A stretch of DNA of 64,000 bases from Nitrospiraceae bacterium (GCA_020632595.1 JACKFF010000006.1:1460-65459), one strand, 5' to 3'. Shown: positions 44,999 to 64,000, counted from the stretch's first letter. Notes: generated by a model from the sequence alone, not told the origin. Made by a program: numbers and translations.

Positions 44999-45793
44999 AT
45001 GAAACGTGGCGCGGTAACAACGGTTTCAGAGAGCCCGGTTTCGGAGAAACCGGCATCGTTGAATCCGACGAAACTTTCGCTTTCCACCCAGGAGCGTGAG
45101 ACGTTGGTTCAGGAGTTTTTGCCGGTAATTAAATACATGGCTATGCGAATGGCCATGCGAGCGTCGAGTGGGCTCAATGTGGAAGATCTCATGAGTGCCG
45201 GAATGGTTGGGCTTCTGGATGCTCTGACGAAATTCGATCCTTCACGAGAAATAAAATTTCGTACCTATGCCGAGTTTCGTATTCGTGGAGCGATGCTTGA
45301 TGAAATCCGGGCGATGGACTGGGTCCCGCGGTCTCTTCGGGAACGCATCGGGAAAATTCAGCATGCAGCCAATGAATGGACGAAACGCAAAGGGCGGCCA
45401 CCGACGGAGGATGAGCTCGCAGAATCCTTAGGCATGGAGGCTCAGGAGGTGGACGAGACTCTTCTGCAAGCCAAGGGAGCCGTCGTGTTAAGTCTCGATG
45501 ATTTGGGCTCCAATGATGAAGACTCACATCCCATTTTGGATGCACTGGCGGATCGGGACCAACCTTCGCCGTTGGAGACGTTGGTGTCGGAGGATGCCCG
45601 CCAGGCGTTGGTCGATGCCATTGAACGATTGCCGGAGCGTCAACGGCTGGTGTTAACCCTCTATTATTTTGAAGAACTGACCATGAAAGAAATAGGAGTC
45701 GTGTTGCACGTCACGGAATCCCGAATTTGTCAATTACATGCCCAAGCCATGATTCGTCTGAAGGCCCTTCTTCATACTCGGCTCGGTCCGTAG
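44999..45793 (+). CDS. fliA: flagellar sigma factor FliA (sigma28)
   Basis: Region 2 (LMSAGMVGLLDALTKFDP...FRTYAEFRIRGAMLDEIR) and region 4 (LVLTLYYFEELTMKEIGVVLHVTESRICQLH). Confidence 0.9.
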   Translation: MKRGAVTTVSESPVSEKPASLNPTKLSLSTQERETLVQEFLPVIKYMAMRMAMRASSGLNVEDLMSAGMVGLLDALTKFDPSREIKFRTYAEFRIRGAMLDEIRAMDWVPRSLRERIGKIQHAANEWTKRKGRPPTEDELAESLGMEAQEVDETLLQAKGAVVLSLDDLGSNDEDSHPILDALADRDQPSPLETLVSEDARQALVDAIERLPERQRLVLTLYYFEELTMKEIGVVLHVTESRICQLHAQAMIRLKALLHTRLGP

Positions 45794-45799
45794 ATATGC

Positions 45800-45850
45800 C
45801 TGAGAGAGACGGCGTAAGCCCTCAGGCGAAGGTGGCGTTTTTTTTTCGGC
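45800..45850 (+). terminator. possible terminator after fliA
   Basis: GCCTGAG...CTCAGGC stem followed ~10 nt later by a T9 run. Geometry is non-canonical. Confidence 0.3.
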
Positions 45851-45902
45851 ATGTCCGACATCTTTGATCGGGCATTGAACTTCAGTTCATGACCAATACG
45901 CG

Positions 45903-45978
45903 CCGTGTGAGGCATGAGTATGGTGAGATAGGGAGGTCTGCTTTTCCTTGAATTTCCAGACACCTCCGTTTTCCTTGC
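45903..45978 (+). repeat. intergenic hairpin element (downstream of fliA)
   Basis: CGTGTGAGGCATGAGTATGGTGAGATAGGGAGGTCTG ... CAGACACCTCCGTTTTCCTTGC. Confidence 0.5.
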
Positions 45979-46000
45979 TACACAACTCTCGAATATCTCT

Positions 46001-47224
46001 GTGGGTTCAATGAAGCAGATGCCGACGGAAAAGGTCCTCGAAATGAACACGCCTCCCGGCGATCCCCTGTATACCATTCTCATTGTGGATGATGAAACGG
46101 TTGTGCGGATGGTTGCCAAGAAGCGTTTGGCCAAACTGCCCTGTCGATTATTAGAGGCAGGTAGCGGGGAAGAGGCGCTAGTCATCCTGGATCACGAGCC
46201 GGTGGATCTCATCCTGTCGGATTGGGTCATGCCCGGTCTTGATGGTCCCGGACTTTGTGAAGCGATTAAACAGGATGAACGCTATCGCACGATCCATTTT
46301 ATCCTGATGACGGCATTGGACCATCCGACACAAATTGCCGAAGGGCTCAGCCGGGGAGCCGACGACTTTCTTTCCAAAACCGATTCCGATCATGAAATTG
46401 TCGCCAGAGTGTGCGCGGGGCTTCGAGCGCGACAGTTGATGACGTATGTGGAAAAGTCTAATCGGTTGTTATCACAAAAGCAGGCCGAATTAGATTCTGA
46501 GCTCCGTTCGGCCTCCACCTTTGTGCGTAGTCTGCTTCCCCGGACCGGGGAAGTGATTCCTGGAGTGCGGGTGGAGTGGGAATTTTTGCCGTCTTCGCAT
46601 TTGGGGGGAGATTTCTTTCAGATCGCCCGATGGGGGGACGACCATCTCGGTCTTATGGTGTTGGATATGTCGGGTCATGGAATCGGGCCGGCGTTGCGGG
46701 CCGTATCGTTATCTCTGCTTTTCAAGGGAGACCACATGCAACAATTGTTTCCCTCCTACGATCCAGGTGAGATTCTGACGAGTCTGAACCAACAATATCC
46801 CATGAGCGATGACGGGGAGTACTTCACGATCTGGATTGGGGTATGGCAATGCTCCACCCGCCTCCTTCGATATGCGAGTGCGGGGCATCCCGGTTCCATT
46901 ATTGTGAAAACCGACCGGTCCTCGATGGTGTTAGGCGAAAAATCCTGGCCCATTGGTTTTTCGCGTAACGAAGTGTATGGAACTAATTCCATCTCCGTGA
47001 AGCCGGGGGACCGGATGTATCTCTATAGTGATGGGATTTATGAGGTGATGAATCCTCAGGAAGAGATCTGGGGGAAAAAAAGACTTCGGAAGGCCCTTGA
47101 GGCGGTTGCCGGCCAGCCGATGCAGTCGGGATTATCCCGTATTATCGAGCAGAGCCGGGCATGGAATGCCAAAGGCGGGTTTGAGGATGACGTTGCGTTA
47201 CTTGGAGTGGAGTTTTATACGTGA
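46001..47224 (+). CDS. response-regulator receiver fused to PP2C (SpoIIE/RsbU-type) phosphatase
   Basis: REC (ILIVDDE...ILSDWVMPGLDG...LSKT), then a PP2C block (GGDFFQI...VLDMSGHGIGPAL...YLYSDGIYE...EDDVALLGVEF). Confidence 0.85.
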   Translation: MGSMKQMPTEKVLEMNTPPGDPLYTILIVDDETVVRMVAKKRLAKLPCRLLEAGSGEEALVILDHEPVDLILSDWVMPGLDGPGLCEAIKQDERYRTIHFILMTALDHPTQIAEGLSRGADDFLSKTDSDHEIVARVCAGLRARQLMTYVEKSNRLLSQKQAELDSELRSASTFVRSLLPRTGEVIPGVRVEWEFLPSSHLGGDFFQIARWGDDHLGLMVLDMSGHGIGPALRAVSLSLLFKGDHMQQLFPSYDPGEILTSLNQQYPMSDDGEYFTIWIGVWQCSTRLLRYASAGHPGSIIVKTDRSSMVLGEKSWPIGFSRNEVYGTNSISVKPGDRMYLYSDGIYEVMNPQEEIWGKKRLRKALEAVAGQPMQSGLSRIIEQSRAWNAKGGFEDDVALLGVEFYT

Positions 47225-47293
47225 GGCCATAGCAGCAAGATACCCCTTTAGCCGGAAGATTCACCTCTCATGTTCTACCCTGACACCTCACGC
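47219..47293 (+). repeat. intergenic hairpin element (REC-PP2C / REC-kinase spacer)
   Basis: The stop codon is embedded in ACGTGAGGCC. Pyrimidine arm TTCACCTCTCATGTTCTACCCTGACACCTCACGC. Confidence 0.5.
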
Positions 47294-47308
47294 TTGGCGG
47301 TTGTCGAA

Positions 47309-48286
47309 ATGGCAGGTATGACAAACACTGTCTCCCGAATCCTCTTAGTAGACGATGATGCGTCAAATCTGGATGTTCTAGTCGAATGTCTGAAGGATGA
47401 ACCCTATGAACTTGTTCAGGCCCAGAATGGGGAAGAGGCCTTAACGCATTTGCGAAAGGATGGCCAAGAATTTCATGCCATGGTGTTGGATCGAATGATG
47501 CCGGGGATGAATGGTCTTGATCTTTTGGGGCATCTGAAAGCTGATGAGCGGCTTCAATGGCTTCCGGTTGTGATGCAAACCGCAGCCGGATCTCCCCAAG
47601 AAATAGGCGAAGGGATTGAAGCGGGAGTCTTTTTTTATCTCATTAAGCCCTTTGACCAGCGGCTCCTTTTGCGGATTGTCAACGCCGCGGTTGAGGAGGG
47701 ATTGAAATGGAAACGGATATGCCGAAATCTGCACCAACAGTCTCAGATTGTTGAATTGTTGCAGCAAGGCCGTTTTCACGTTCGTACCATGGAAGAGGCG
47801 TATGATCTGGCATTCCTATTGGGGCGAGCTTGCCCCAATGCAGAAAAAGTTGTGTTCGGGCTAAATGAACTCTTGGCGAATGGCGTGGAGCATGGAAATT
47901 TGGGAATCGGGTTCGATGAAAAAACGGTCCTGCAGGCAAAGGGAACATGGGAGAAAGAAATTCAACATCGGTCTGGGCTGCCTGAGTATGTCCATAAGGT
48001 GGTCGACGTGTTGTTTGAACGGTGTCAGGATTGCATCCAGATCACCATCACGGACCAAGGTTCGGGTTTCGACTGGCGGAAGTATGAACAGATCAACCCG
48101 GACCGAATTTTGGAAAGTCACGGAAGGGGTATTGCGATGGCCAAGGCCCTAAGTTTCTCACGGATCGAGTATCGAGGGAAAGGCAATCAGGTCGTGTGTG
48201 TCATCAAGACTGACTCCCCGATCGGTGATGAAGGGAACTCTTTCGCATCTGAACCGATGGCCGTTCACAAATCGAATCGGGCGTGA
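47309..48286 (+). CDS. response-regulator receiver fused to an RsbW/SpoIIAB-like HATPase (anti-sigma-type serine kinase) domain
   Basis: REC (ILLVDDD...VLDRMMPGMNG...LIKPF), then ELLANGVEHGN...ITITDQGSGFD...HGRGIAMAK. ATG 47309 or 47318. Confidence 0.75.
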   Translation: MAGMTNTVSRILLVDDDASNLDVLVECLKDEPYELVQAQNGEEALTHLRKDGQEFHAMVLDRMMPGMNGLDLLGHLKADERLQWLPVVMQTAAGSPQEIGEGIEAGVFFYLIKPFDQRLLLRIVNAAVEEGLKWKRICRNLHQQSQIVELLQQGRFHVRTMEEAYDLAFLLGRACPNAEKVVFGLNELLANGVEHGNLGIGFDEKTVLQAKGTWEKEIQHRSGLPEYVHKVVDVLFERCQDCIQITITDQGSGFDWRKYEQINPDRILESHGRGIAMAKALSFSRIEYRGKGNQVVCVIKTDSPIGDEGNSFASEPMAVHKSNRA

Positions 48287-48358
48287 GGAGTCATACGTGA
48301 GGGAAAAGCGAATTTGCCCTCTCCAAAAATTTCCCTCCGTATCCTTACTCCTCCCTAC
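48279..48358 (+). repeat. intergenic hairpin element (after the REC-kinase gene)
   Basis: The stop is embedded in GGCGTGAGGAGTCATACGTGAGGGAAAAGCG. Pyrimidine arm TTCCCTCCGTATCCTTACTCCTCCCTAC. Confidence 0.6.
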
Positions 48359-48548
48359 AGGTTGTGGGCATCATGAGAAAAAATGAGTCTGTCTAAAGTA
48401 AGTTTCATTGGTCTCCGAAAGGGATCGTTGTCTCCTGTTTATCTCTTGATAGGTCGTAGGGATTACCCTGGGAATCGTAGCGTCAGATTAGACAGGAAGG
48501 GACGTTGGAAGGTTTACGGTTTTTTTTTACGAAAGATGAGAGGGTAAC

Positions 48549-48845
48549 ATGGAAGAATGCCAAGTCACGTCAAGGAGTCCTGATGAGCCGGTACTCAGGC
48601 CCCAAGGCGACCTCACCATTTTTGAAGCGGCACAATTTCACGCCGATTTAATGTCCTTGAATCAACAAAAGGGGCCTCTCGTGATTGATTTAAGCGGGGT
48701 GGACCGTATGGATTCCTCCTGTGTGCAGCTGATGGTCGCAGCGACCCGCTCCGGGCGGGTGACGGTGCGGGGGTATTCCAACCGTATTCGTGACAAGTTT
48801 GAGCAAATTGGATTTGCACAGTTTCTTCCACCCCAGGAATCGTAA
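48549..48845 (+). CDS. STAS-domain anti-sigma-factor antagonist
   Basis: 98 aa. GDLTIFEAAQF...LVIDLSGVDRMDSSCVQLMVAA is a SpoIIAA-like pattern with Ser after the D-x-x-D/S position. Confidence 0.8.
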   Translation: MEECQVTSRSPDEPVLRPQGDLTIFEAAQFHADLMSLNQQKGPLVIDLSGVDRMDSSCVQLMVAATRSGRVTVRGYSNRIRDKFEQIGFAQFLPPQES

Positions 48846-48903
48846 CGCAAAAACATTAAATAATGCAGTCGGTATTCAACGAGATTCAAGAATGAGGTGA
48901 TGT

Positions 48904-50040
48904 GTGAATGGTGATTGGATGGTATGGATGGGTGTAGTGGTGGCCGGAACCGGAATTGGATATGTCTTGGGCGCCAGGAGCAGGCAGACACGAATCCACC
49001 GGCTGGAACAGCAACTGCAGGAAAGTATTCAGGCTCAGCGCCGTTGGATAGAGAACTGGAAGGCCTTTTGCCAGTGTCTGGCACCGGTGTTTCCGGTATT
49101 TGTGGCACAGATCAAGGCGGTCATTCAAGAAACAGGACAAGCGGCCGACGGATTGATTCAGCGGTTTCAGGCGATTTCACGAAATGCCAGGGAGCAGGTA
49201 GAGGAAACCGAAGCGTTGTTACATATGGCAGATGGGCATGGCGGGAAAGATGACTTTACCGTCGATCGGATCCTACATGACACGCAAAAGACCATCGAAA
49301 TGTTTGTCAAGCAAGTCACACAGACGACCACCGTGACGCTCGCCACGGTGAGTGTGATGGAGCAGGCATTAGAAACCACCTCTCGAATTTCAGAGGTGGT
49401 GGAGGAAGTCGAATTTATTGCCGATCAAACCCGACTCTTAGCGCTCAATGCGGCGATTGAAGCCGCTCGAGCGGGAGAGCATGGCCGGGGGTTTGCCGTG
49501 GTGGCCGACGAAGTGACGAAGTTGGCCAATCGGTCTGCCCAGGCCTCAGAGCAGATTCGTACTCTCGCGACGACGGTGAAAGGCACAACCGAATCGGCCA
49601 TGTCGGAACTCCAGGTGTTGGCGTCGTTAGACTTATCGGAAACGGTAGAAGCTCAGAACCAGGTTTTGGAGATGATTAAGATTATGGGTCAAAAAAATGA
49701 GACCTTAAAAAAGAGCGTTGGTCACAATTCGGGGCGAACCAAAGAACTGGGCAAGGATATCGGACATATTGTGATGTCCATGCAATTTCAAGATATTACC
49801 CGTCAAAAATTAGAGCATGTCTACCAGCCCTTGGAGCGCATTCATGCGCCGCTTCAAGCGGTGGCAGACGATACTGACGGTATAGATATGATGCCGAAGG
49901 TGCTCGAAGAAATCCGGAATCTCGAGCACACCTACACCATGGAGTCTGAACGACTCACGATGCAGTCTGCGCGTTCGGGTCAAGGGACGGTGATGGTCGG
50001 AACCGGCTCGGATGAAGGAGATAACATCACGTTATTCTAA
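48904..50040 (+). CDS. short methyl-accepting chemotaxis protein (one N-terminal TM, no large sensor domain)
   Basis: Signalling hairpin [42 protein letters not shown]. Confidence 0.85.
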
Positions 50041-50102
50041 AGACGTGAGGGGTGAAGGGGCAGGCGTGAGGTGTAATTTTCCACCGTACATCCTTCCGTT
50101 AC
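50041..50102 (+). repeat. intergenic hairpin element (after the short MCP)
   Basis: AGACGTGAGGGGTGAAGGGGCAGGCGTGAGGTGTAA ... CCACCGTACATCCTTCCGTTAC. Confidence 0.45.
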
Positions 50103-50194
50103 TGAATTATGAAAAACTGGGAGGAGTTCGCGGGTTCCATGCTGATCGTACAGCGTCAACAGAGAAATTCACAGAACCAAAGTGAGGTAAAGCT

Positions 50195-50566
50195 ATGGGC
50201 AAGACAGTTTTAGTGGTGGACGATTCCGTCTCGATGCGTCAGATGGTGAGCTTTACGCTGACCGGTGCCGGCTACGAAGTGGTCGAGGCTGGAGACGGAA
50301 AAGAAGCCGTGGATAAACTCAATGGAGGGGCGAAGCCCAGTTTGGTGATTACGGATCTGAATATGCCGAATATGGATGGAATTTCTTTGATTAAGGCGGT
50401 ACGGGGCATGGCTGCCCATAAGTTTACCCCGATTCTTATGTTAACCACCGAGTCCTCTGATGACAAAAAGAAAGAAGGGCAAAGTGCTGGAGCGACGGGG
50501 TGGGTTGTCAAACCGTTCAATCCAGAACAAATGTTAGCCACGATTAAGAAAGTTCTTCCCGGCTAA
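50195..50566 (+). CDS. cheY: chemotaxis response regulator CheY
   Basis: 123 aa. VLVVDDS...VITDLNMPNMDG...VVKPF. Confidence 0.9.
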   Translation: MGKTVLVVDDSVSMRQMVSFTLTGAGYEVVEAGDGKEAVDKLNGGAKPSLVITDLNMPNMDGISLIKAVRGMAAHKFTPILMLTTESSDDKKKEGQSAGATGWVVKPFNPEQMLATIKKVLPG

Positions 50567-50569
50567 GAA

Positions 50570-50697
50570 AAGGTGACGAGTGTGGAGTCTGGAGTGAGAT
50601 TAGAGAAGCAAAACAAAAGAGTCAGGAGAAATCGTATTGTTGCCCCTTACCCCCTGCCTCCATTGAATTGAAGCGTAAGGGGGTGATGAGTGAATGC
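50570..50697 (+). repeat. intergenic hairpin-family sequences (after cheY, before the four-helix-bundle pseudogene)
   Basis: AAGGTGACGAGTGTGGAGTCTGGAGTGAG ... CCCCTTACCCCCTGCCTC ... GCGTAAGGGGGTGATGAGTGAA. CCCCTTAC (50643-50650) pairs with GTAAGGGG (50674-50681). Confidence 0.45.
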
Positions 50698-50982
50698 AGA
50701 AATCCCTAAAGGGTTAAAAAAATCGGGAAGGGAGTTAGTCCCTATGGTCTTCTTTAGACTCACGCAAGGCTTCCCATCTCATGAACCATATTGATTAACC
50801 GGTCCAATTGGCAGATCGGCCTCGGTATACCGGCAAAGATTGCTGAAGGGGCTGCGAGGCAAACCCAAAAAGAGTTCATGCTGTTTCTCCATATTTCCCG
50901 GGGATCGTTGAGCGAGGTAATGACGTTGATCGAGTTGCACGTGGTGTACGATATTTCCCCCAAGAAGCATGACAGACGATAG
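50678..50982 (+). pseudogene. four-helix-bundle protein (23S rRNA intervening-sequence protein family), apparently frameshifted
   Basis: The C-terminal part (50791..50982) reads GIPAKIAEGAARQTQKEFMLFLHISRGSLSEVMTLIEL, matching the IPxNIAEG...KEF..FL.IA.GSL.E family signature. The N-terminal part (..LVPMVFFRLTQGFPSHEPY*) lies in another frame and ends at 50792-50794. Confidence 0.5.
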
Positions 50983-51090
50983 AGGGCCAACGCCATTTTA
51001 CCGGGAAGACGATCACGGGACTCATTAAACAATTCAAGTATATATACGCTGTAACGCTACACAAGTAAGAGCGAACAAGGGAAGCCATCT

Positions 51091-51160
51091 ACGGTGAAAC
51101 GGTGAGGAAGAAGAGGCAGGCACTGCTTACTCCTTATCCTTCACTCCTTACCAAAAGGAG
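51091..51160 (+). repeat. intergenic hairpin element immediately upstream of cheA, overlapping its SD
   Basis: ACGGTGAAACGGTGAGGAAGAAGAGGCAGG ... CTTACTCCTTATCCTTCACTCCTTACC. CTCCTT (51144-51149) can alternatively pair with the cheA SD AAGGAG (51155-51160). Confidence 0.6.
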
Positions 51161-51168: not shown

Positions 51169-53274
51169 ATGGCAGTTGATCTTTCACGGTTTCAAGAGTC
51201 ATTTTTTACTGAATCCGCAGAACATGTCGAAACCATCGAATCCGGTTTGTTGGCGTTAGAGCAACGTCCGAACGACCTGGACTTATTGAACCGAATTTTT
51301 CGGGGCGCTCATTCGATTAAAGGCAATGCGGGGATGTTTCATTTTACGGCCATTGCCGAGTTGACTCACAAAATGGAAAACATTCTGGATGACCTCCGGA
51401 ATGAAAAAATGCCGGTGACCCCTCACATCATCGATGTGCTGTTACGGGCGCTGGACGGATTAAAAAACCTTTTGGATGCGGCGCAGGGAGGTGAGGCAGC
51501 AGATGAGGCGGCCATTCACGTCCTAGAAGGTGAGCTGGATGCCTGTCAGAAAGGAAGGCCCGCTTCTGCACAGGAGGGGGCTTTTGCTGAAACCGGTCCC
51601 CAGGCTTTTCCACTTCAAGCCGCCACGTGGCGAAGGGTCCAGATTGATTGGAGTGCCTTGCCGGAATTATTTCAACGAGGGATGGATCCCGCCCAGATTT
51701 TCAAGGAACTGCATGAGTTGGGTATGGTGAAGACGCTGCATGTGCGAACCGACGGTCTTCCGGCTTTGGATGCACTCGATCCAGAACGGTGTTATCTCGG
51801 TTGGAGGGTGGAATTGGAAACGGATGCTCCTATCGCCCAGATCGAGGAGGTGTTTGCGTTTGTCCGAGATGGGAGCGAGTTAGCCATCATCGATTGCGCA
51901 CCGAAAAAACCGGAACCCTATAAACGGGTGGGGGATATTCTGGTGGAAGAAGGCGTGGTGACTCCGGAGCAAATCGCCGAAAGCCTGGCCAAGCAAAAGC
52001 CTCTTGGCGAAATTCTGGTGGAAGAGAAAAAGGCGTCTCCCCAACAAGTCCATCAAGCGCTGCAGAAGCAGCAGCAATTGAAAAAAAATGAGGTGGCATC
52101 TATTCGGGTCGATACGGAAAAGATCGATAAATTAATCAATCTGGTGGGGGAATTGGTGATTACGCAATCGATGATTACCGACCTGAGTGAGAAGTTTACC
52201 CTCGCGCAGCTCCCGGTTCTCCAGGAACGGATAACCCAATTGGAACGTAATACCCGGGAGATACAAGAACGGGTCATGTCCATTCGAATGATGCCGATCG
52301 GAAGTGCCTTCCACCGATTCCCGCGGTTGGTTCGGGATCTCGCAGGGAAAAGCGGCAAGCAGATTCAATTGGTCATGTCAGGAGAGGAAACCGAGTTGGA
52401 TAAAACGCTGATCGAGGCGATTGGCGACCCGCTCACCCATCTGGTTCGCAATTCAGCCGATCATGGGTTGGAGTTACCCGAAGAACGGGTGGCTCAAGGC
52501 AAACCGGAACGAGGAACCATTCGTCTCCATGCGTATCACGATGGCGGCAATATTTGTATTGCCGTGGAGGATGACGGGCGAGGGCTGAACCGGGAAAAGA
52601 TCATTAAAAAAGCCATCGAAAAAGGGATCATTGCCGATGGCAGCAATATGTCGGATGAAGCCGTGTATCAACTGATTTTTCGGCCTGGATTTTCCACGGC
52701 AGAGACCATCACCGATGTGTCAGGTCGAGGGGTGGGGATGGATGTGGTGAAGCGGAATATCGAGGGTCTTGGCGGGTCAGTGGACATTCAGAGCACGATG
52801 GGAAAAGGTTCTCGCCTCACGCTGAAATTGCCGCTTACGCTGGCCATTATTGACGGGATGACCGTCCGGGTCGGTCAGGATAACTACATTATCCCGCTTA
52901 TTGCGGTCACCGAATCCATTCGCCCTAAACCCAATGAGTTGCAACGGATTGTGGGAAAAGGCGAGGTGGTCAATCTTCGTGGAGAATGGGTGCCGGTGGT
53001 CAAGCTCTATGAGGCGTTTGCCCTCACGCCAGACTTTACCGATCCCTCGCAGGCTTTGTTGGTGATCGTGGAAACCGATGGCCGGCGATTGGCCGTGCTC
53101 GTGGATGAACTGACGGGGCAACAACAAGTGGTCATTAAGAGTTTGGAACAAAATTATCGCAAGGTCGAGGCTATTTCCGGAGCCACCATTCTGGGGGACG
53201 GACAGGTCGCGTTGATTTTGGATGTGCCGGGATTGGCCAAATTGGCACGGGTTGGCCACATTGCGGCGGCATAA
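51169..53274 (+). CDS. cheA: chemotaxis histidine kinase CheA
   Basis: HPt FRGAHSIKGNAGMF, dimerisation and HATPase domains (HLVRNSADHG, DDGRGL, GRGVGMDVV), and a CheW-like C-terminus. Confidence 0.95.
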   Translation: MAVDLSRFQESFFTESAEHVETIESGLLALEQRPNDLDLLNRIFRGAHSIKGNAGMFHFTAIAELTHKMENILDDLRNEKMPVTPHIIDVLLRALDGLKNLLDAAQGGEAADEAAIHVLEGELDACQKGRPASAQEGAFAETGPQAFPLQAATWRRVQIDWSALPELFQRGMDPAQIFKELHELGMVKTLHVRTDGLPALDALDPERCYLGWRVELETDAPIAQIEEVFAFVRDGSELAIIDCAPKKPEPYKRVGDILVEEGVVTPEQIAESLAKQKPLGEILVEEKKASPQQVHQALQKQQQLKKNEVASIRVDTEKIDKLINLVGELVITQSMITDLSEKFTLAQLPVLQERITQLERNTREIQERVMSIRMMPIGSAFHRFPRLVRDLAGKSGKQIQLVMSGEETELDKTLIEAIGDPLTHLVRNSADHGLELPEERVAQGKPERGTIRLHAYHDGGNICIAVEDDGRGLNREKIIKKAIEKGIIADGSNMSDEAVYQLIFRPGFSTAETITDVSGRGVGMDVVKRNIEGLGGSVDIQSTMGKGSRLTLKLPLTLAIIDGMTVRVGQDNYIIPLIAVTESIRPKPNELQRIVGKGEVVNLRGEWVPVVKLYEAFALTPDFTDPSQALLVIVETDGRRLAVLVDELTGQQQVVIKSLEQNYRKVEAISGATILGDGQVALILDVPGLAKLARVGHIAAA

Positions 53275-53417: not shown

Positions 53418-53957
53418 ATGACCACCGCAACGGCTGAACCGACAGAACAACGCTCGATTCGAACGACGTATGCCAGCGACGATCAACAATATCTGACCTT
53501 CAATCTGGCGGATGAATATTACGGAGTGGATATTCTGAAAGTACAGGAGATTAAGGGATACACCACGGTGACCAGGATCCCCAATACCCCTGACTTTCTT
53601 AAAGGGGTGCTCAATCTTCGGGGCACAATTGTGCCCATTGTGGATCTTCGCATGAAATTCGGCATGGGGGTGACCGAACCCACGTCGTTCACCGTGGTGG
53701 TTGTGGTCAATGTCCGGAATCGTGTGATGGGCTTTCTGGTTGATGCGGTGTCTGATGTGTTGGATATGAATGCCAAGGATATTCAGGCCCCTCCGGACAT
53801 GGGCACCTCGGTCGATGTCACGTTTATCGCCGGCATCGGTAATGCCCAGGATCGCTTAGTGACCCTGTTGGATATTGATCGGGTTCTCACGGAGGAGGAA
53901 GTCGTCGTCGTGGAAAACATTCAAGACTTGGAAGAAAAACCTGAGGTCCATGACTGA
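53418..53957 (+). CDS. cheW: chemotaxis coupling protein CheW
   Basis: YLTFNLADEYYGVDILKVQEIKGY...NLRGTIVPIVDLR. Confidence 0.9.
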   Translation: MTTATAEPTEQRSIRTTYASDDQQYLTFNLADEYYGVDILKVQEIKGYTTVTRIPNTPDFLKGVLNLRGTIVPIVDLRMKFGMGVTEPTSFTVVVVVNVRNRVMGFLVDAVSDVLDMNAKDIQAPPDMGTSVDVTFIAGIGNAQDRLVTLLDIDRVLTEEEVVVVENIQDLEEKPEVHD

Positions 53958-54034: not shown

Positions 54035-56272
54035 ATGAACAGGATGGTGAACACAAATTTCAGTTTGGGGATTGCAACCAAGTTGGTGGTGTTGTTCGCC
54101 ATCTTTGGCATAGTGCCGATGGCCGCGGTGGGGTATTTAGGGGCTTCCGCTACGGGGGAAATGGAAACAGCCGCCGGACTGCGCGTGCAAGCGATGGCTG
54201 AGACCATTGGAGATAAAATCGACCGTAATTTATTCGAACGGTATGGGGATCCTCAATCCTTTGGTCTTAATAGGATCGTGGGTGAGCGCTACCATTGGTA
54301 CAGCAAGGAGAATAATGCGATAGCGAGTGCCATGAATCAATATGTCGCGACTTCCGGAATTTATTATTTGACGATATTGGTAGATCCTGCTGGAGATGTC
54401 ATGGCTGTGAACTCAAAGGATGCCAAAGGGAATCCGATCGACACCACGGCAATTTATTCAAAAAAATATACGGACGCTCCCTGGTTTAAGGCGGTGGAAG
54501 CGAAAGAATTTACCACAAGACAACCCTTTACGAGCCCCGGCAATGATACGGCGACCGGGACCTACATTGAAGACGTTCATGTCGATGAAGATGTGAAGTC
54601 GGTGTATTTGGGAGATGACGGGTTGACCTTGGGTTTTTCTGCTCCGGTGTATGTGGATGGCGATTTGATCGGGTATTGGACCAATCGGGTCAAATTTTCT
54701 TTGGTGGAAGAAATCGTGCAATCCGCTTATCAAGAGCTTAAAGGGGCCGGATGGATGGGGTCGGAAATTTCTCTGCTCGGAGATAAGGGGCAGGTCATCG
54801 TGGATTTTGATCCCTCCAATCAAGGCACAGAGGACATGACCCATGATTTTGAAAAGACGTTGTTTAAACTCAATCTGGCAGACAATGGAGTAGAAACGGC
54901 AAAATTCGCCGTTGCTGGAAAAACAGGCTATCAATTAGCCCTCCATGATGAGAAGAACATCTGGCAAATGGGTGGCTATACCCATCTGAAAGGCGCCTTA
55001 GGCTATCCGGGTATGAATTGGTCTGTCCTGGTGAGAGTTCCTAAAGCCGAAGCCACTGCTGCGGCCATTGCATTTAATCGAGATTTAACCATTACCGCCA
55101 TTATTTGTCTGGTTCTGATTTTGGTCGTTGGATTGTGGGTTGGTCGTCGTGGTGCAAATAATCTGGTTCAAATTAGCGAAGTGGCTCAACGGGCGGCCGA
55201 TGGAGATTTGAGTCGGCGGGTCACCGTGATGTCCAATGATGAATTGGGAACCATGGGCAAGGCGATGAATGTCATGTTGGATAATTTGGTGAGAGTGGTA
55301 TCGGAAGTCCGCCAGGCTGCGGAACATGTCTCTATCGCATCAGGTGAAATCACCCAAGGTAATGAAGATCTCTCGCAACGCACCTCGGCTCAGGCAGGCG
55401 CCTTGGAGGAGACCAGCGCGTCGATGGAAGAGATGACGTCCACCATCAAGCAAAATGCCGATAACGCCAAGCAGGCCAACCAATTAGCGGTGGCCGCCCG
55501 GGAAGTGGCAGAGAAGGGGGGCGCGGTCACGGACAAGGCTGTGGTGGCCATGGATGAGATTAATAAGAGCAGCAAGAAGATCGCGGATATTATTAACGTG
55601 ATCGACGAAATCGCGTTTCAGACAAACCTTTTGGCACTCAATGCTGCCGTGGAAGCTGCACGCGCAGGTGAACAAGGCCGGGGTTTTGCTGTGGTGGCCT
55701 CGGAAGTGCGAAATCTGGCACAACGTTCGGCCTCGGCTGCCAAGGAGATCAAGACACTGATCAATGAATCGGTGCAAAAAGTTGGTGACGGCAGCGAGTT
55801 AGTGAATCGCTCGGGCCAGACGCTGGGCGAGATTGTGAATTCGGTTAAACGAGTCACGGATATTATTTCGGAAATCAGTGCGGCCTCCCAGGAGCAGGCT
55901 GCGGGGATCGATCAGGTGAACAAGTCGGTGATGCAGATGGATCAGGGCACGCAGCAGAATGCGGCCTTGGTAGAGGAAGCTACGTCGGCTTCCCAATCCA
56001 TGAAGCAGCAAGCGACTGAACTGTTGAATCAAGTCGCATTTTTTAAATTAGAAGATACAGAACAAAAACGGGTTGCAGGGACACAACCCGGATCGGGAGC
56101 CAAGGTTGCGCTTTCAAGTGGCAATAATTCCTCCGCCATGAGTAAGCCTTTACATTCAGTGAAGGGTGTCCTCCCTCCAAAGGCCACGGCGAAGACTCAA
56201 CCGGTTGGCGTGGGCAGTTCGAATGGCCATGACCGCCGTCAACGTCAGGATGATTTTTTTGAAGAGTTTTAG
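54035..56272 (+). CDS. methyl-accepting chemotaxis protein with a ~300-aa periplasmic (Cache-like?) domain and HAMP
   Basis: Two TMs, HAMP ([19 protein letters not shown]), the signalling domain, and a C-terminal DDFFEEF. Confidence 0.9.
55379..56047 (+). repeat. 669-nt signalling-domain block, copy 1 (paralogous to 57367-58035)
   Basis: Encoded peptides are almost identical ([55 protein letters not shown]...). DNA differs mostly at synonymous sites. Confidence 0.9.
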
Positions 56273-56410
56273 AAGACGTGACGGGTCAATCGTGAGGGGA
56301 GAGACGAAATGACAGAAAAGAGGGAGCCTGATGGCGTTGCCTTTTCGGGCATCCCGGCCGGTTGGTAGGGGGGATCCATCCTACGCCTTACGGTTCACCC
56401 CTTACGCGGG
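56273..56410 (+). repeat. intergenic hairpin element (between the two large MCP genes)
   Basis: AAGACGTGACGGGTCAATCGTGAGGGGAGAGACG ... CATCCTACGCCTTACGGTTCACCCCTTACGCGGG. Confidence 0.6.
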
Positions 56411-56460
56411 ACATTGAGGCAGGCAAGTTTGTTTATTTATCAAATAAGATAGGAGGTCGC

Positions 56461-58269
56461 ATGGGTAAAGTATGGAACTCAATAGGCATCGGTCCAAAGG
56501 TGGTGATGACTATTATGGTGGTCTTTTCAAGTTTACTTGCAGGGGGAGCGTATTTGCTCGGACAGCAATTGCATTCCGATCTTGAACGGGTCTTGTCCGA
56601 TCAGGCGTATATTGTTCAAAAGCAAATTGAGGTCACTCGTGCCTATGTGACCAAAGAGTTTGTGGTGAAAGCCAAGGCGGCTGGGATGAATACCGGGGTT
56701 GACCATAGTGCTCCCGATACGGTTCCCTTTCCGGCCACATTTGCTCGTGAAACCTCTGAAATATTGGCTGAGGAAGGCGTGTTTAATGCCAGGATCGTGA
56801 GTCTCTCGCCCCTGAATCCCAAAAATGCTCCGCAAGATTCCTTTGAGAAAGACGCCCTAGCTGCCCTGGCTGCCGGCCAAAAAGAATTTACCAGAAACGA
56901 TACCGTGAATGGGAAAATGATGTTCCGCCGTGCGACCCAGGATTTGGCGACGGTCCAAGCCTGCATCGGCTGTCATGAGGGCAAAAAAATCGGGGAAATG
57001 CTGGGAGCTGTATCGGTACAGATTCCCATGGATGGTCCCGCTGCCCAATTACAAGGGAATCTCAGTAATATGTATATGGGGATTCTGGCCGTGGGCTTGT
57101 TGATGATGGGGCTGTTGTATCTGATGATTGCGAAGTTGGTGGTCAAGCCGATGAAGAGTCTGGAGTCCATGGCGGAGCGAGCCAAGGAAGGAGATCTCAC
57201 CGGTCGGGCCAGCGTGAACAGTCAGGATGAAATCGGTCGAACCAGTGAATCGTTTAATATGATGTTTGACCGGGTGAGTGAAGTCATTGGGTCTGTCAAA
57301 ACAGCTGTTTCCGGCATTACGACCGGGACTTCCGAGATAAATGCAGGAACCTCCGATCTTGCCGGGCGAACCTCGGCGCAAGCAGGAGCCCTGGAAGAAA
57401 CCAGTGCGTCCATGGAAGAGATGACCTCTACCATTAAACAGAATGCGGATAACGCCAAACAGGCGAACCAATTGGCGGTGGCCGCCCGGGAAGTGGCGGA
57501 GAAGGGTGGCGCGGTCACGGACAAGGCCGTGGAGGCCATGGATGAAATCAATAAGAGCAGCAAGAAGATCGCGGATATTATTAATGTGATCGACGAAATC
57601 GCGTTTCAAACGAATCTCTTAGCTTTGAATGCAGCGGTGGAAGCGGCACGGGCGGGCGAGCAGGGACGAGGTTTTGCGGTAGTGGCTTCGGAAGTGCGAA
57701 ATCTGGCGCAACGTTCTGCCACGGCGGCCAAGGAGATTAAGACGCTGATCAACGAATCGGTGCAAAAAGTTGGCGGTGGCAGTGAGTTGGTCAATCGCTC
57801 GGGCCAGACGCTGGCCGAAATTGTGAACTCGGTCAAACGGGTCACGGATATTATTTCAGAAATCAGTGCGGCTTCCCAGGAGCAGGCGGCGGGGATTGAT
57901 CAAGTGAACAAGGCGGTGATGCAGATGGACCAAGGCACACAACAAAATGCGGCCTTGGTGGAACAGGCGACTTCAGCGTCCCAATCGATGGCGCAACAAG
58001 CTGAGGATCTGTTGCGGCAGGTCGAGTTTTTCAAGGTCCAGACTGAGTTCGGGACTCAACGTTCTGAGCCTATGGCAAAAACCGGCTCATCCGTTCACGC
58101 TCAATCGACGAGCGGAACGGGGTCTCAATATTCTCGTGCGGCCTCGTCTATGACTGGTAAAGCTCAGGGAAAGCATTTCCCCACTAAAAAAGAGGTCGCT
58201 GTGGGTGTTGGGAGTTCGGGGTCCAACGGGCATAAAAAGCCAGGGGATGATTTTTTTGAAGAATTTTAG
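56461..58269 (+). CDS. methyl-accepting chemotaxis protein whose periplasmic domain is a Tll0287/DUF3365-like c-type heme module
   Basis: TM1, a ~190-aa periplasmic region with CIGCH (CxxCH) followed by [10 protein letters not shown]2, HAMP ([18 protein letters not shown]), the signalling domain, and a DDFFEEF tail. Confidence 0.85.
57367..58035 (+). repeat. 669-nt signalling-domain block, copy 2
   Basis: See 55379-56047. Confidence 0.9.
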
Positions 58270-61749: not shown

Positions 61750-61776
61750 TAAATTCGATCATAGGTGTGCCGATAA
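61750..61776 (+). promoter_or_regulatory. sigma28 (FliA) promoter for cheR-cheD-cheB
   Basis: TAAA-N15-GCCGATAA, an exact match to the class-3 flagellar promoter consensus. ~390 nt upstream of the cheR ATG. Confidence 0.7.
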
Positions 61777-62168: not shown

Positions 62169-63008
62169 ATGATGACGGCAACGTTGACTGATAATGAATT
62201 TGAACAGTTTAAACACTTAATTTATCAGCAGGTCGGTATTACGCTCGATGCCCCAAAAAAAACGCTCTTAGTTTCTCGTTTGGGGAAACGGCTTCGGGAT
62301 CTTCACCTTTCCTCGTATCAGGCGTATTACGACTGTGTGAGCGGGAAAGGCGGGGAAGAAGAGTTGATGAAGTTGTTGGATCTTGTGTCAACGAATAAAA
62401 CTGATTTTTATCGGGAGCCTGTGCATTTTGATTTTCTCCGCGACCAGGTTCTTTCAGAGGTGCAATCGGCCAAGACCTTGAGAATTTGGTCTTCCGCGTC
62501 CTCTTCCGGGGAAGAACCCTATACGATTGCCATGACCCTGTCTGATGGCATTGCCGATATTAATCGATGGGACATCAAAATTCTCGCCTCCGATATTTCT
62601 ACGCGGGTATTGGCAAAGGCTTCCTCGGGTATCTATGAGGAAGAGCGGGTGAGTCAACTTCCCATTGATTTGGTGAAACGACATTTTCTCCGTGGGAAAG
62701 GCCCGCAAGCGGGAAAGCTGCAGGTGCGCCCTCAGATCGCGCGTCTTGTGGCCTTTCGACGGATAAATTTGATGGACCCGACCTTTCCTATACGGAGTCA
62801 ATTGGATGTAATCTTTTGTCGGAATGTTATGATTTATTTTGATCGTCCCACGCAAGCCAAACTCATGGAGAAGTTTTTCCGATATCTCCGCCCTGGTGGA
62901 TATTTGTTTATCGGACATTCAGAAAGTTTGCAGTGGATCGACCATCAATTTACATATCTGCGCCCGACCATTTATCAAAAACCGATCAGCGTGAAAAGTG
63001 AGGCGTAG
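62169..63008 (+). CDS. cheR: chemotaxis methyltransferase CheR
   Basis: FEQFKHLIYQQVGI...TDFYREP...IWSSASSSGEEPYTIAM...IFCRNVMIYFD. Confidence 0.9.
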   Translation: MMTATLTDNEFEQFKHLIYQQVGITLDAPKKTLLVSRLGKRLRDLHLSSYQAYYDCVSGKGGEEELMKLLDLVSTNKTDFYREPVHFDFLRDQVLSEVQSAKTLRIWSSASSSGEEPYTIAMTLSDGIADINRWDIKILASDISTRVLAKASSGIYEEERVSQLPIDLVKRHFLRGKGPQAGKLQVRPQIARLVAFRRINLMDPTFPIRSQLDVIFCRNVMIYFDRPTQAKLMEKFFRYLRPGGYLFIGHSESLQWIDHQFTYLRPTIYQKPISVKSEA

Positions 63009-63098
63009 GGGAGAGGGCAAAGGGGAGAGTGGTTAGGCGTGGAGGATCGGAAGCACTCATCACTTTTCTCATGCTCCTGACTGTTCACTCCTTACTTT
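62997..63098 (+). repeat. intergenic hairpin element (cheR/cheD spacer)
   Basis: The stop is embedded in GTGAGGCGTAGGGGAGAGGG...GGTTAGGCGTGGAGG. The pyrimidine arm ends TGTTCACTCCTTACTTT, a 17-mer identical to 36861-36877. Confidence 0.6.
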
Positions 63099-63107
63099 AA
63101 GGAAATT

Positions 63108-63716
63108 ATGTCATCTACAGGATTGATGGAATTTGGGCATATTCGGCGAATGCAGGATACCCGCTTCCCCTACGAAGTGGCCGTCATTCTCCCAGGTGAA
63201 TATTTTGTAAGCCGGGAGCCCAAAGTCGTCTATACGGTATTAGGTTCCTGTATCTCAGTGTGTCTGCGAGATCCAGAAGCCGGCGTGGGAGGGATGAATC
63301 ATTTCATGTTAGCAGCTCCTTCCAATATTGAAGGACACGATAATTGGGCAGATTCGGGACGATACGGGAGCTTTGCCATGGAAATGCTGATGAACGATAT
63401 TTTCAAGCGCGGCGGAAAAAAAGACCGCCTCGAAGCGAAAGTCTTTGGCGGGGGAAAGATTTATGATGGCACCATCGATATTGGGGCCCAAAATGCCGCT
63501 TGGGCTCTCGCCTTTTTGGAACAGGAGGGTCTGTCGCCTATTAAAGCCGATGTCGGAGATGTCTGTCCTCGGAAGGTGTACTATTTCACCGATTCGGGAA
63601 AAGTGCTCATGAAAAAACTCGACCGTGTCGTGGCGAGTGCGATTGCGCAGGAGGAGGGGCAGTATCGGAAGAAACTTCAACATGCTCCTGTGCAGTCGGA
63701 CGTCACACTTTTTTGA
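63108..63716 (+). CDS. cheD: chemoreceptor glutamine deamidase CheD
   Basis: TVLGSCISVCLRDPEAGVGGMNHFMLA...KVFGGG. Confidence 0.9.
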   Translation: MSSTGLMEFGHIRRMQDTRFPYEVAVILPGEYFVSREPKVVYTVLGSCISVCLRDPEAGVGGMNHFMLAAPSNIEGHDNWADSGRYGSFAMEMLMNDIFKRGGKKDRLEAKVFGGGKIYDGTIDIGAQNAAWALAFLEQEGLSPIKADVGDVCPRKVYYFTDSGKVLMKKLDRVVASAIAQEEGQYRKKLQHAPVQSDVTLF

Positions 63717-63724
63717 GGAAACAC

Positions 63725-64000
<276 letters not shown>

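What the first reader, a model, noticed from the sequence alone, without database searches (positions are those of the whole stretch)
46001..48845. Split, doubly REC-gated partner-switching module between fliA and the che genes
Three consecutive genes encode REC-PP2C phosphatase, REC-RsbW-like serine kinase and a STAS antagonist. They lie immediately after the sigma28 gene and before MCP-cheY-cheA. In Pseudomonas the HptB-HsbR-HsbA system (as I recall) uses one REC-PP2C-kinase protein and a STAS protein that sequesters the anti-sigma28 factor FlgM. Here the phosphatase and kinase are separate proteins, each with its own receiver. Two phosphorylation inputs, possibly from the adjacent CheA or another HPt donor, could therefore set STAS phosphorylation independently. 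No flgM is present in the window, so the output target is not visible.
Basis: partly seen in the sequence, partly recalled or inferred. Interest (0 to 1): 0.65.

Follow-up and report, generated by a model that had tools for sequence, protein, structure and literature searches.

The report
Split receiver-gated partner switch in Nitrospira
Beside the flagellar sigma-factor gene of a Nitrospira-like bacterium sit two response regulators, a protein phosphatase and a protein kinase, that most likely set the phosphorylation of small STAS switch proteins to link sensing to motility; it is a split variant of a known switch, and its usual STAS partner lies just outside the window.

Summary
The three genes exist as described: REC-PP2C (46010-47224), REC plus RsbW-like kinase (47318-48286) and a STAS protein (48549-48845), between fliA and MCP-cheY-cheA. 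The catalytic and phospho-acceptor residues are conserved. The gene order is kept in all Nitrospirales loci with enough flank.

The trio is probably not self-contained.
- The STAS gene is separated from the kinase gene by 262 bp that carry a conserved sigma-28-type promoter.
- It is the first gene of the che operon.
- It belongs to a divergent class of STAS proteins found inside che operons (CheS-like position). Its best annotated relatives sit in che operons that show no kinase or phosphatase gene in the stretch read.
- A canonical STAS (115 aa) lies about 2.5 kb beyond the window end, next to an HD-GYP gene and a hybrid histidine kinase with an HPt domain. It is related to the STAS proteins that flank this kinase/phosphatase pair in Proteobacteria.

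The kinase belongs to the Rec-Bergerat response regulators that were first characterised recently (LvrC, TciR). Fusions with PP2C occur in every domain order.

Best reading: a split HptB-HsbR-HsbA-like relay. Its target (c-di-GMP turnover, sigma-28 or CheA) is unproven. New variant of a known kind; moderate interest.

The parts
44999..45793 (+). fliA (sigma-28), last gene of the flhA-flhF-flhG-fliA block, directly upstream of the module
   Evidence: TIGR02479 FliA_WhiG 1.2e-78, above its cutoff; Sigma70 r2/r3/r4; precedes the pair in all Nitrospirales loci with upstream flank
46010..47224 (+). REC-PP2C response regulator (serine phosphatase of the RssB-of-Pseudomonas/RsbY type); the ORF opens at GTG 46001
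   Evidence: Pfam Response_reg + SpoIIE; best solved relatives are P. aeruginosa RssB 3es2/3eq2; catalytic Asp and REC Asp conserved
47318..48286 (+). REC + RsbW-like (Bergerat-fold) serine kinase/anti-sigma-type response regulator of the LvrC/TciR family; the ORF opens at ATG 47270
   Evidence: Pfam Response_reg + HATPase_c_2; N, G1 and G2 boxes invariant; Foldseek top hit 9QIH LvrC at E 1e-11, SpoIIAB at TM 0.55-0.58; alignment to 9qih
48287..48548 (+). 262-bp spacer between the kinase gene and the STAS gene; variable in relatives except for one promoter-like block; holds no STAS remnant
   Evidence: Alignment of 10 relatives; tblastn with canonical STAS proteins finds nothing here; no Rfam hit
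48394..48421 (+). Sigma-28-type promoter candidate TAAAGT-N-TCCGAAAG for the STAS-MCP-cheY-cheA operon
   Evidence: The block TCTAAAGTA...TCCGA(A/T)AG is the main conserved stretch of the spacer in 10 of 10 relatives; one of 4 matches to TAAA-N14-17-CCGA[TA]A in the window against 1.1 expected. On its own the match is not significant
48549..48845 (+). STAS-A: 98-aa STAS-only protein of a che-operon class (motif MDSSCVQL), first gene of che operon 1
   Evidence: Pfam STAS/STAS_2; always directly upstream of the short MCP; outlier versus canonical STAS groups; 50 bits to a che-operon STAS of Pseudomonas sp. HR96 against 22 bits to the organism's own canonical STAS
48904..50040 (+). Short MCP (378 aa): hydrophobic N-terminus, no sensor or HAMP domain detected, always paired with STAS-A
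   Evidence: MCPsignal 4e-27, no other significant domain; 28% identical over residues 63-378 to the short MCP of the HR96 che operon
50195..50566 (+). cheY of che operon 1
   Evidence: Response_reg 3e-26; 89-99% identical across Nitrospirales loci
51169..53274 (+). cheA (Hpt, dimerisation, HATPase_c, CheW domains); the histidine kinase gene nearest to the pair (another, HisKA-type, lies at 20089-21411)
   Evidence: Pfam; 41% identical over full length to cheA of the HR96 che operon
53418..53957 (+). cheW
   Evidence: Gene calls with the CheW family on identical contigs
54035..58269 (+). Two MCP genes (54035-56272, and 56461-58269 with a Tll0287-like sensor domain)
   Evidence: Pfam; gene calls
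61750..61776 (+). Perfect sigma-28 consensus promoter TAAA-N15-GCCGATAA upstream of cheR-cheD-cheB
   Evidence: One exact match against 0.00 expected
62172..64000 (+). cheR (62172-63008), cheD (63108-63716) and the start of cheB (from about 63838). The supercluster continues beyond the window with cheR2, canonical STAS-115 (about 66454-66801 in window-equivalent coordinates), HD-GYP, hybrid HK-REC-HPt, HTH, cheY2, cheZ and cheA2
   Evidence: Pfam; contig L089 is 98.6% identical to window 56426-64000 and extends it; STAS-115 sequence

Best explanation
The two response regulators form an antagonistic pair of serine kinase and serine phosphatase. They amount to an HsbR/CrsR-type partner-switching regulator split into two proteins, each gated by its own receiver domain. 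The pair belongs to a larger conserved Nitrospirales supercluster: flagellar genes-fliA | REC-PP2C, REC-kinase | che operon 1 | (PilZ)-STAS-115, HD-GYP, hybrid HK-REC-HPt | cheY2-cheZ-cheA2.

Inferred mechanism.
1. A phosphorelay phosphorylates the two receivers. The most likely donor is the hybrid kinase with its HPt domain; CheA is an alternative.
2. This shifts the balance between kinase and phosphatase activity.
3. That balance sets the serine-phosphorylation state of the canonical STAS-115, which lies just outside the window.
4. STAS-115 then switches partners. Candidates are the neighbouring HD-GYP c-di-GMP phosphodiesterase and the RsbW-like domain of the kinase, which may hold a sigma factor. 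This would couple the signal to the choice between motile and sessile life.

The STAS gene inside the window (STAS-A) is primarily a CheS-like accessory of the sigma-28-driven che operon. It may be a second substrate.

Shown here: domains, catalytic residues, gene order, family relations and the promoter motif. Inferred: every phosphorylation and every binding step.
For: (1) Both enzymes look active and both receivers look phosphorylatable.

(2) The kinase and PP2C are functionally linked. They are adjacent in all Nitrospirales loci and in gammaproteobacterial loci. Fusions exist in all orders: REC-PP2C-REC-kinase (P0244), REC-kinase-REC-PP2C (P0265), REC-kinase-PP2C (seven representative proteins; also in alphaproteobacterial loci) and PP2C-REC-kinase (P0292).

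(3) In Proteobacteria the pair or fusion is flanked by a canonical STAS. Several loci also carry a hybrid HK-REC-HPt and a c-di-GMP enzyme (REC-GGDEF-EAL in L049, L051, L070; hybrid HK-HPt in L063). An Azospirillum plasmid shows a large 'response regulator' gene of unchecked domains, a TciR-like regulator and a diguanylate cyclase.

(4) The window organism has the same set, STAS-115 + HD-GYP + hybrid HK-REC-HPt, about 2.5 kb past the window end. The block is conserved in four further Nitrospirales genomes. In L025 it follows the kinase gene directly, and the pair is intact although STAS-A and the short MCP are absent.

(5) STAS-115 groups with the proteobacterial partner STAS proteins (48-60 bits). 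STAS-A does not (10-23 bits).

(6) STAS-A has its own conserved sigma-28-type promoter. It resembles che-operon STAS genes where no kinase or phosphatase gene is annotated in the stretch read.

(7) Family members elsewhere are paired with histidine kinases (L029-L032, L028 and L040). LvrC is phosphorylated by the kinase LvrB (PMC13269768).

(8) Precedents: HptB-HsbR-HsbA (PMC8256260, PMC6482189) and CrsR-CrsA inside the Shewanella che1 locus (PMC9855816).
Against: - No experiment or interaction prediction links the kinase to either STAS.
- STAS-115 lies about 18 kb from the kinase gene, with a whole che operon in between. STAS-A lies 262 bp away.
- STAS-A keeps Ser56/Ser57 in 120-121 of 121 homologues. 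Its proteobacterial che-operon relatives lack the serine (MDAAGVQL, VDLSFVQL). This fits STAS-A being phosphorylated.
- Some Nitrospirales carry a third STAS (with HDOD) directly after the kinase gene, so the network may be branched.
- L025 is a single metagenome-assembled genome.
- The phosphodonor is unknown. The REC sequences do not discriminate between donors.
- The structure model of the kinase is of modest quality (pLDDT 64).
Confidence: 0.5

Rival explanations
1. The three window genes are a self-contained partner switch. STAS-A is the substrate of the kinase and phosphatase. When unphosphorylated it sequesters FlgM, as HsbA does, and so frees sigma-28.
For: The genes are adjacent. STAS-A Ser56/57 are conserved and Ser56 aligns at the expected phospho-site. 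fliA lies directly upstream. HsbA is a precedent (PMC6482189). STAS-A is the only STAS near the pair in the window clade and in the L029 clade.
Against: STAS-A has its own promoter and heads the che operon. It is unrelated in sequence to the STAS proteins that accompany this pair elsewhere and resembles che-operon STAS genes with no kinase or phosphatase annotated nearby. A canonical STAS exists nearby. The pair persists in L025 without STAS-A. No flgM could be examined.
Confidence: 0.15
2. The REC-kinase works mainly as a receiver-regulated anti-sigma factor, as proposed for LvrC. Its target is sigma-28, encoded directly upstream. A STAS protein relieves the block. Because STAS-A would be sigma-28-dependent, this gives positive feedback like that of the sigB operon.
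For: The fold and sequence are of the RsbW/SpoIIAB type. LvrC and TciR are proposed anti-sigma regulators (PMC13269768, PMC12826045). The gene follows fliA in all Nitrospirales and in L040; L028 has a second copy right after fliA. FliA scores as a relative of SigB/F/G. Promoter before STAS-A.
Against: Outside Nitrospirales only 1 of about 50 loci has fliA nearby; histidine kinases and c-di-GMP genes are the usual neighbours. The strictly conserved kinase motifs and the PP2C partner argue that phosphorylation of a substrate matters. No sigma binding has been shown for any family member.
Confidence: 0.2
3. The Che pathway is the input, as suggested for Shewanella Che1 and CrsR. CheA of operon 1 (or CheA2) phosphorylates one or both receivers, so the module is an output branch of chemosensing.
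For: The window shows no other histidine kinase gene near the pair (the only other one, at 20089-21411, lies 25 kb upstream). The module sits at the end of che clusters in gammaproteobacterial genomes (L053, L056, L070). crsR-crsA lie in the che1 locus (PMC9855816).
Against: Dedicated HisKA kinases sit next to the pair in several Nitrospirales clades (L028, L029-L032). A hybrid HK-HPt sits next to STAS-115 in all genomes examined. The REC domains are no closer to CheY (27-29%) than to each other (33%).
Confidence: 0.2

Closest known systems
HptB-HsbR-HsbA (with HsbD) of Pseudomonas aeruginosa
   Same: A receiver-controlled PP2C phosphatase and RsbW-like kinase act on a STAS protein. Input comes through an HPt domain. 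The system is linked to flagellar sigma-28 control and, from memory, to a c-di-GMP enzyme (PMC8256260, PMC6482189). The Nitrospira supercluster holds all of these domain types.
   Different: HsbR is one REC-PP2C-kinase protein with a single receiver; here there are two proteins and two receivers. The HPt is part of a hybrid kinase. The c-di-GMP enzyme is an HD-GYP, not a cyclase. The canonical STAS is 18 kb away and a second, che-type STAS lies next to the pair.
CrsR-CrsA in the che1 locus of Shewanella oneidensis
   Same: A partner-switching regulator and its STAS are encoded inside a chemosensory gene cluster that has cheR, cheD and cheB (PMC9855816).
   Different: CrsR is a single three-domain protein that sequesters RpoS.
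LvrC (Leptospira interrogans LIC11110, PDB 9QIH) and TciR (Vogesella indigofera)
   Same: The same two-domain architecture: REC plus an RsbW-like Bergerat domain of about 300 aa. LvrC is the top structural hit (E 1e-11) and the best relevant sequence hit in the PDB. The TciR paper lists Nitrospira among taxa with such proteins (PMC12826045).
   Different: LvrC and TciR are each paired with a histidine kinase and have no known STAS or PP2C partner. The TciR authors report that V. indigofera lacks an RsbV homologue. Here the partner is a REC-PP2C and STAS genes are close by. Identity to LvrC is only about 18-19%.
RssB of Pseudomonas (PA2798) / RsbY of Bacillus cereus (REC-PP2C regulators)
   Same: REC + PP2C architecture. 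P. aeruginosa RssB structures are the best solved relatives of the phosphatase domain. The NCBIfam RR_RssB_Pseudo model aligns over residues 23-381.
   Different: The score (109 bits) is far below the equivalog cutoff of 700, so it is not an orthologue.
CheS of Sinorhizobium meliloti and other STAS genes in che operons
   Same: A small STAS-only protein encoded beside cheY and cheA, near a short MCP. CheS binds CheA and sharpens signalling (PMC12654446, PMC4214558). The best annotated relatives of STAS-A lie in such operons.
   Different: No CheS sequence was available, so homology to CheS itself was not tested. STAS-A keeps the phospho-serine position, which its two plasmid relatives lack.
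SypE-SypA of Vibrio fischeri
   Same: A response regulator with opposing RsbW-like kinase and PP2C phosphatase activities controls a STAS protein whose output is not a sigma factor (cited in PMC12826045 and PMC8256260).
   Different: A single kinase-REC-PP2C protein, located in a polysaccharide locus.

Membership tests
Partner-switching system (RsbU/RsbW/RsbV type) | PP2C/SpoIIE phosphatase with intact metal-binding aspartates | tested here: met
   SpoIIE 1.2e-36; D201, D219, D341, D393 and D394 kept in 29-30 of 30
Partner-switching system (RsbU/RsbW/RsbV type) | RsbW/SpoIIAB-type GHKL serine kinase with N, G1 and G2 boxes | tested here: met
   HATPase_c_2 at 32.9 bits, above the 27.4 cutoff; motifs invariant; SpoIIAB structural matches at TM 0.55-0.58
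Partner-switching system (RsbU/RsbW/RsbV type) | STAS antagonist with a phosphorylatable serine, phosphorylated by the kinase | tested here: inconclusive
   STAS-A has the serine but is of a divergent che-operon class. The canonical STAS-115 with VDSSALG lies outside the window. Phosphorylation itself cannot be tested here.
Partner-switching system (RsbU/RsbW/RsbV type) | A sigma factor or other target sequestered by the kinase or by the STAS protein | not testable with these tools
   Only adjacency is seen: fliA upstream of the pair, HD-GYP next to STAS-115
HsbR/CrsR-type three-domain regulators | One polypeptide REC-PP2C-kinase with a single receiver | tested here: not met
   Two separate genes, each with its own REC; a 93-nt gap lies between them
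HptB-HsbR-HsbA pathway | HPt-domain phosphodonor | tested here: inconclusive
   A hybrid HK-REC-HPt is encoded in the same supercluster beyond the window; transfer is untested
HptB-HsbR-HsbA pathway | STAS protein binds FlgM | not testable with these tools
   No flgM in the window; the rest of the genome could not be searched
Rec-Bergerat response regulators (LvrC/TciR) | N-terminal REC with a complete phospho-acceptor site plus a C-terminal RsbW-like Bergerat domain, about 300 aa | tested here: met
   322 aa. The family is large: 899 clusters (50% identity) at E<=1e-30, most about 300 aa
Rec-Bergerat response regulators (LvrC/TciR) | Cognate histidine kinase encoded next to it | tested here: not met
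   None adjacent in the window. Present in relatives: L029-L032, L028, L040 and L039, L042, L046, L054, L055
Che-operon STAS proteins (CheS-like) | Small STAS-only protein encoded within a che operon beside cheY/cheA | tested here: met
   First gene of STAS-MCP-cheY-cheA. Relatives lie in che operons of Pseudomonas sp. HR96 and Shinella
Che-operon STAS proteins (CheS-like) | Binds CheA and modulates CheY phosphotransfer | not testable with these tools
   Known for S. meliloti CheS only (PMC4214558)

The most novel reading that the evidence does not exclude
The kinase/phosphatase pair controls two or three different STAS proteins at once. One of them, STAS-A, is a CheS-like protein that has kept a phospho-serine and docks on CheA or on the sensor-less short MCP. 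A two-component phosphorelay would then gate chemotaxis signalling directly through serine phosphorylation. In parallel the Rec-Bergerat kinase would hold sigma-28. This would be a branched partner switch joining flagellar gene expression, chemoreceptor-array output and c-di-GMP turnover. It would also give the first substrates for the LvrC/TciR family.
Probability: 0.2. Interest if true: 0.75.

Novelty: new variant of a known kind. Interest (0 to 1): 0.5.

Why it matters
Rec-Bergerat response regulators (REC plus an RsbW-like domain) form a large family: about 900 clusters at 50% identity. Their first functional and structural studies appeared only in 2025-26 (TciR, LvrC). Both papers leave the target unknown, and LvrC controls virulence genes in Leptospira.

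The comparative picture here makes a concrete, testable prediction for the family. Its recurrent genomic partners are REC-PP2C phosphatases (including fusions), canonical STAS proteins, hybrid kinases with HPt domains and c-di-GMP enzymes. The family would therefore act as receiver-gated STAS kinases in partner-switching relays.

For Nitrospira, a key nitrite oxidiser in wastewater flocs and biofilms, the locus is a candidate control point for the choice between swimming and attachment.

The work also shows that a STAS gene next to a kinase need not be its partner. Che operons carry their own class of STAS proteins.

Tried and rejected
- Looked for a remnant of a canonical STAS gene in the 262-bp spacer and elsewhere in the window; none found.
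- A plain sigma-28 consensus scan with mismatches was not above chance. Only conservation across relatives made the site before STAS-A credible.
- The sigma-54 motif scan was at chance level. The generic promoter/terminator scan was uninformative.
- RNA folding gave no clear terminator after fliA (z -1.07). A structure after the kinase gene has no T-run.
- Rfam gave nothing in the window, nor in 45700-51300 with permissive settings.
- Sequencing-run search found only DNA metagenomes (biofloc, activated sludge), so operon structure could not be read from RNA.
- REC-domain identities (33% between the two, 27-29% to CheY) do not point to a donor.
- The AlphaFold2 model of the kinase reached only pLDDT 64, so it was used for fold assignment only. 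A fused kinase-STAS model was considered and dropped, because the tools report no interface measure.
- Literature: Dogra et al. 2012 on CheS is not held. Nothing on flgM in Nitrospira. A 'SenB' search was empty; 9QIH is LvrC.
- The word-indexed search with STAS-A reached only very close homologues (apparently all Nitrospirales), so distant relatives had to be found through annotated plasmids.


Full report
**Observation.**
The three ORFs are real and carry the stated domains.
- 46001/46010-47224: REC + SpoIIE/PP2C.
- 47270/47318-48286: REC + HATPase_c_2, the RsbW-like kinase domain.
- 48549-48845: a 98-aa STAS-only protein.

They follow fliA at 44999-45793 (FliA_WhiG model above its cutoff). 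They precede a short MCP, cheY, cheA, cheW and two MCP genes.

The window comes from a marine- or wastewater-type Nitrospira. The kinase is 88% identical to that of Ca. Nitrospira neomarina and 89-91% identical to Nitrospira genomes assembled from metagenomes. The DNA is found in biofloc and activated-sludge metagenomes.

Upstream lies a flagellar gene block: a FleQ-like activator, a histidine kinase with a sigma-54 activator, then flgB to fliR, flhB, flhA, flhF, flhG and fliA. No FlgM family member is among the ORFs scanned.

**Are the enzymes functional?**
- In 14 kinase homologues the REC acidic pocket (D28-30), acceptor D74, T104 and K126 are invariant. So are the N-box (E200, N204, H208-G-N), G1 (D262-Q-G-x-G-F) and G2 (S283-H-G-R-G).
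- In 30 phosphatase sequences the PP2C metal ligands D201, D219, D341, D393 and D394 are kept in 29-30, and REC D71 in 27.
- The phosphatase domain's best solved relatives are P. aeruginosa RssB structures.
- The kinase model (pLDDT 64) matches LvrC of Leptospira best (9QIH, E 1e-11). Its C-terminal half matches SpoIIAB (TM 0.55-0.58).

**The kinase belongs to a large family that was studied only recently.**
- An exhaustive search finds 899 clusters (50% identity) at E<=1e-30. Most are about 300 aa, that is REC plus kinase only. The 'split' form is therefore the common one.
- Two members have been studied. TciR of Vogesella indigofera is paired with the kinase TciK. Its authors state that no protein of this architecture had been characterised and list Nitrospira among the carriers (PMC12826045). 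LvrC of Leptospira is phosphorylated by LvrB and is proposed to be a receiver-regulated anti-sigma factor whose sigma factor is unknown (PMC13269768).
- Many family genes in my sample are followed by a HisKA-type sensor kinase.

**The link between kinase and phosphatase.**
- The two genes are adjacent in all 28 Nitrospirales loci and in gammaproteobacterial loci.
- Fusion proteins exist in every order: REC-PP2C-REC-kinase, REC-kinase-REC-PP2C, REC-kinase-PP2C and PP2C-REC-kinase. The REC-kinase-PP2C form also occurs in Magnetospirillum and Rhodospirillaceae loci.
- Both receivers are retained even in some fusions. This supports the 'doubly gated' description.

**Two kinds of STAS.**
Collecting all STAS ORFs from 86 loci separates two classes.
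- STAS-A is the window type, with motif GDLTIFEA...MDSSCVQL.VAATRSGR.
- The other class is canonical, with the motif DS(A/S)(G/A)LG.

STAS-A always lies directly upstream of the short 378-aa MCP. It is very conserved; Ser56 and Ser57 are kept in 120-121 of 121.

Canonical STAS genes are what flank the kinase/phosphatase pair or fusion in Alpha- and Gammaproteobacteria. In nine Nitrospirales loci one follows the kinase gene directly. In five of these it is followed by, or fused to, an HDOD domain, and in L025 it is followed by an HD-GYP.

The window has no canonical STAS and no remnant of one.

In a similarity matrix STAS-A is an outlier, at 10-23 bits to every canonical group. The canonical groups score 31-95 bits with one another.

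**STAS-A belongs to the che operon.**
- The 262-bp spacer between the kinase gene and STAS-A is poorly conserved, except for the block TCTAAAGTA-(spacer)-TCCGA(A/T)AG. This block is present in 10 of 10 relatives.
- It fits the sigma-28 consensus with a spacer one base longer than standard. The perfect consensus occurs at 61750-61776 before cheR.
- A relaxed pattern hits four times in the window against 1.1 expected. Three hits lie on the + strand in front of chemotaxis genes.
- The best annotated relatives of STAS-A sit in che operons. One is on a Pseudomonas sp. HR96 plasmid: MCP-cheY-STAS-cheA-MCP-cheW-cheR-cheD-cheB (50 bits, 33% identity). Its short MCP and cheA also match those of the window (28% and 41%). 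The other is on a Shinella plasmid: STAS-cheY-cheA-cheW. Neither stretch shows a kinase or phosphatase gene in its annotation.
- STAS-A scores only 22 bits against the organism's own canonical STAS.
- This position recalls CheS of S. meliloti, a STAS-only protein that binds CheA (PMC12654446, PMC4214558).
- One caveat: the two plasmid relatives lack the serine (MDAAGVQL, VDLSFVQL), whereas Nitrospirales keep DSS.

**What lies beyond the window.**
A contig that is 98.6% identical to window 56426-64000 continues the sequence. In order it carries:
- cheB and cheR2;
- a canonical STAS of 115 aa with VDSSALG (window-equivalent coordinates about 66454-66801);
- an HD-GYP protein (DUF3391 + HD_5);
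- a 1001-aa hybrid kinase (PAS-HisKA-HATPase-REC-HPt);
- a small HTH gene, then cheY2, cheZ and cheA2.

The same block, often preceded by a PilZ gene, is found in four other Nitrospirales genomes. One is the genome of locus L024, where it lies directly downstream of that locus.

In L025 this block follows the kinase gene directly. Che operon 1 with STAS-A is absent there, yet both regulators are intact.

In gammaproteobacterial loci the pair is embedded in this order: hybrid HK-REC-HPt, STAS, REC-GGDEF-EAL, STAS, REC-PP2C, REC-kinase. In Magnetospirillum the fusion is followed by a hybrid HK-REC-HPt. An Azospirillum plasmid shows a large 'response regulator' gene whose domains I did not check, a TciR-like regulator and a diguanylate cyclase.

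The recurring set is therefore kinase, phosphatase, canonical STAS, hybrid HK-HPt and a c-di-GMP enzyme. In this organism the set is present but is interrupted by a che operon.

**Mechanism (inferred).**
The pair is best read as a split HsbR/CrsR-like regulator within an HptB-HsbR-HsbA-like relay (PMC8256260, PMC6482189). It also has a precedent in the che1-embedded CrsR-CrsA system (PMC9855816).
1. Phosphoryl groups from the hybrid kinase's HPt domain, or from CheA, set the kinase/phosphatase balance through two receivers.
2. The balance fixes the phosphorylation state of STAS-115, and perhaps of STAS-A.
3. The output could be the HD-GYP enzyme, a sigma factor held by the RsbW-like domain (sigma-28 is the obvious candidate), or CheA.

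None of these steps is shown.

Several Nitrospirales clades carry a HisKA kinase next to the pair (L028, L029-L032). This argues for a conventional kinase rather than CheA as donor, but does not exclude CheA.

**Verdict.**
The split, doubly gated kinase/phosphatase pair next to fliA is real and conserved. The in-window STAS is more likely a che-operon protein than the dedicated antagonist. The system extends beyond the window.
- It is a new variant of a known kind.
- Its main value is that it suggests substrates and partners for the barely characterised LvrC/TciR family.

Noticed in passing
window 50744-50937 (+), in the 600-bp cheY-cheA gap: Remnant, with stop codons in the reading frame upstream of it, of a small protein with the motif NQ.RRAA.SIP.NIAEG. 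From memory it resembles the four-helix-bundle '23S rRNA intervening-sequence' proteins. Intact genes of 119-140 aa occupy the same position in L018, L021, L029 and L031.
   Followed up: partly
window 4799-7324 (-): A single 841-aa ORF joins TetR_N/TetR_C domains to a squalene-hopene cyclase. It is either a true fusion or two genes in the same frame with no stop between them.
   Followed up: no
window 58438-61461: A chlorite-dismutase-like gene (60697-61461) and two Tll0287-like (sensor-domain) genes sit inside the chemotaxis supercluster. One MCP (56461-58269) and, in L028, a histidine kinase next to a second REC-kinase use the same Tll0287-like sensor domain.
   Followed up: partly
window 58345-58370 and 61750-61776; L089 15469-15495: Further sigma-28-type promoters lie in front of a Tll0287-like gene, of cheR-cheD-cheB (a perfect consensus), and, beyond the window, of HTH-cheY2-cheZ-cheA2. 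This outlines a FliA regulon in the organism.
   Followed up: partly
window 48904-50040: The 378-aa MCP has only a hydrophobic N-terminus and the signalling domain; no sensor or HAMP domain was detected. It is always paired with STAS-A. A similar short MCP accompanies the che-operon STAS on the Pseudomonas sp. HR96 plasmid.
   Followed up: partly
L018 1644-2876 and L031 11127-12371; L017, L021, L026: In one Nitrospirales subclade a canonical STAS directly after the kinase gene is fused to, or followed by, an HDOD-domain protein. L026's copy has MDRAG, with no serine.
   Followed up: partly
L087, L088, L096, L097 (about 150-200 bp upstream of STAS-115): A PilZ-domain gene precedes the STAS-115/HD-GYP/hybrid kinase block in L088, L096 and L097. 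It is absent in L087 and in the window organism (L089), where cheB or cheR2 precedes the STAS directly.
   Followed up: no
L035, L041, L047, L048, L061, L069, L071, L073, L077, L083, L085: Nitrospira and Nitrospiraceae genomes carry further REC-kinase genes (43-50% identity to the window protein) in unrelated contexts, for example after an FKBP isomerase gene. They may be paralogues; whether they share a genome with a fliA-linked copy was not checked.
   Followed up: no
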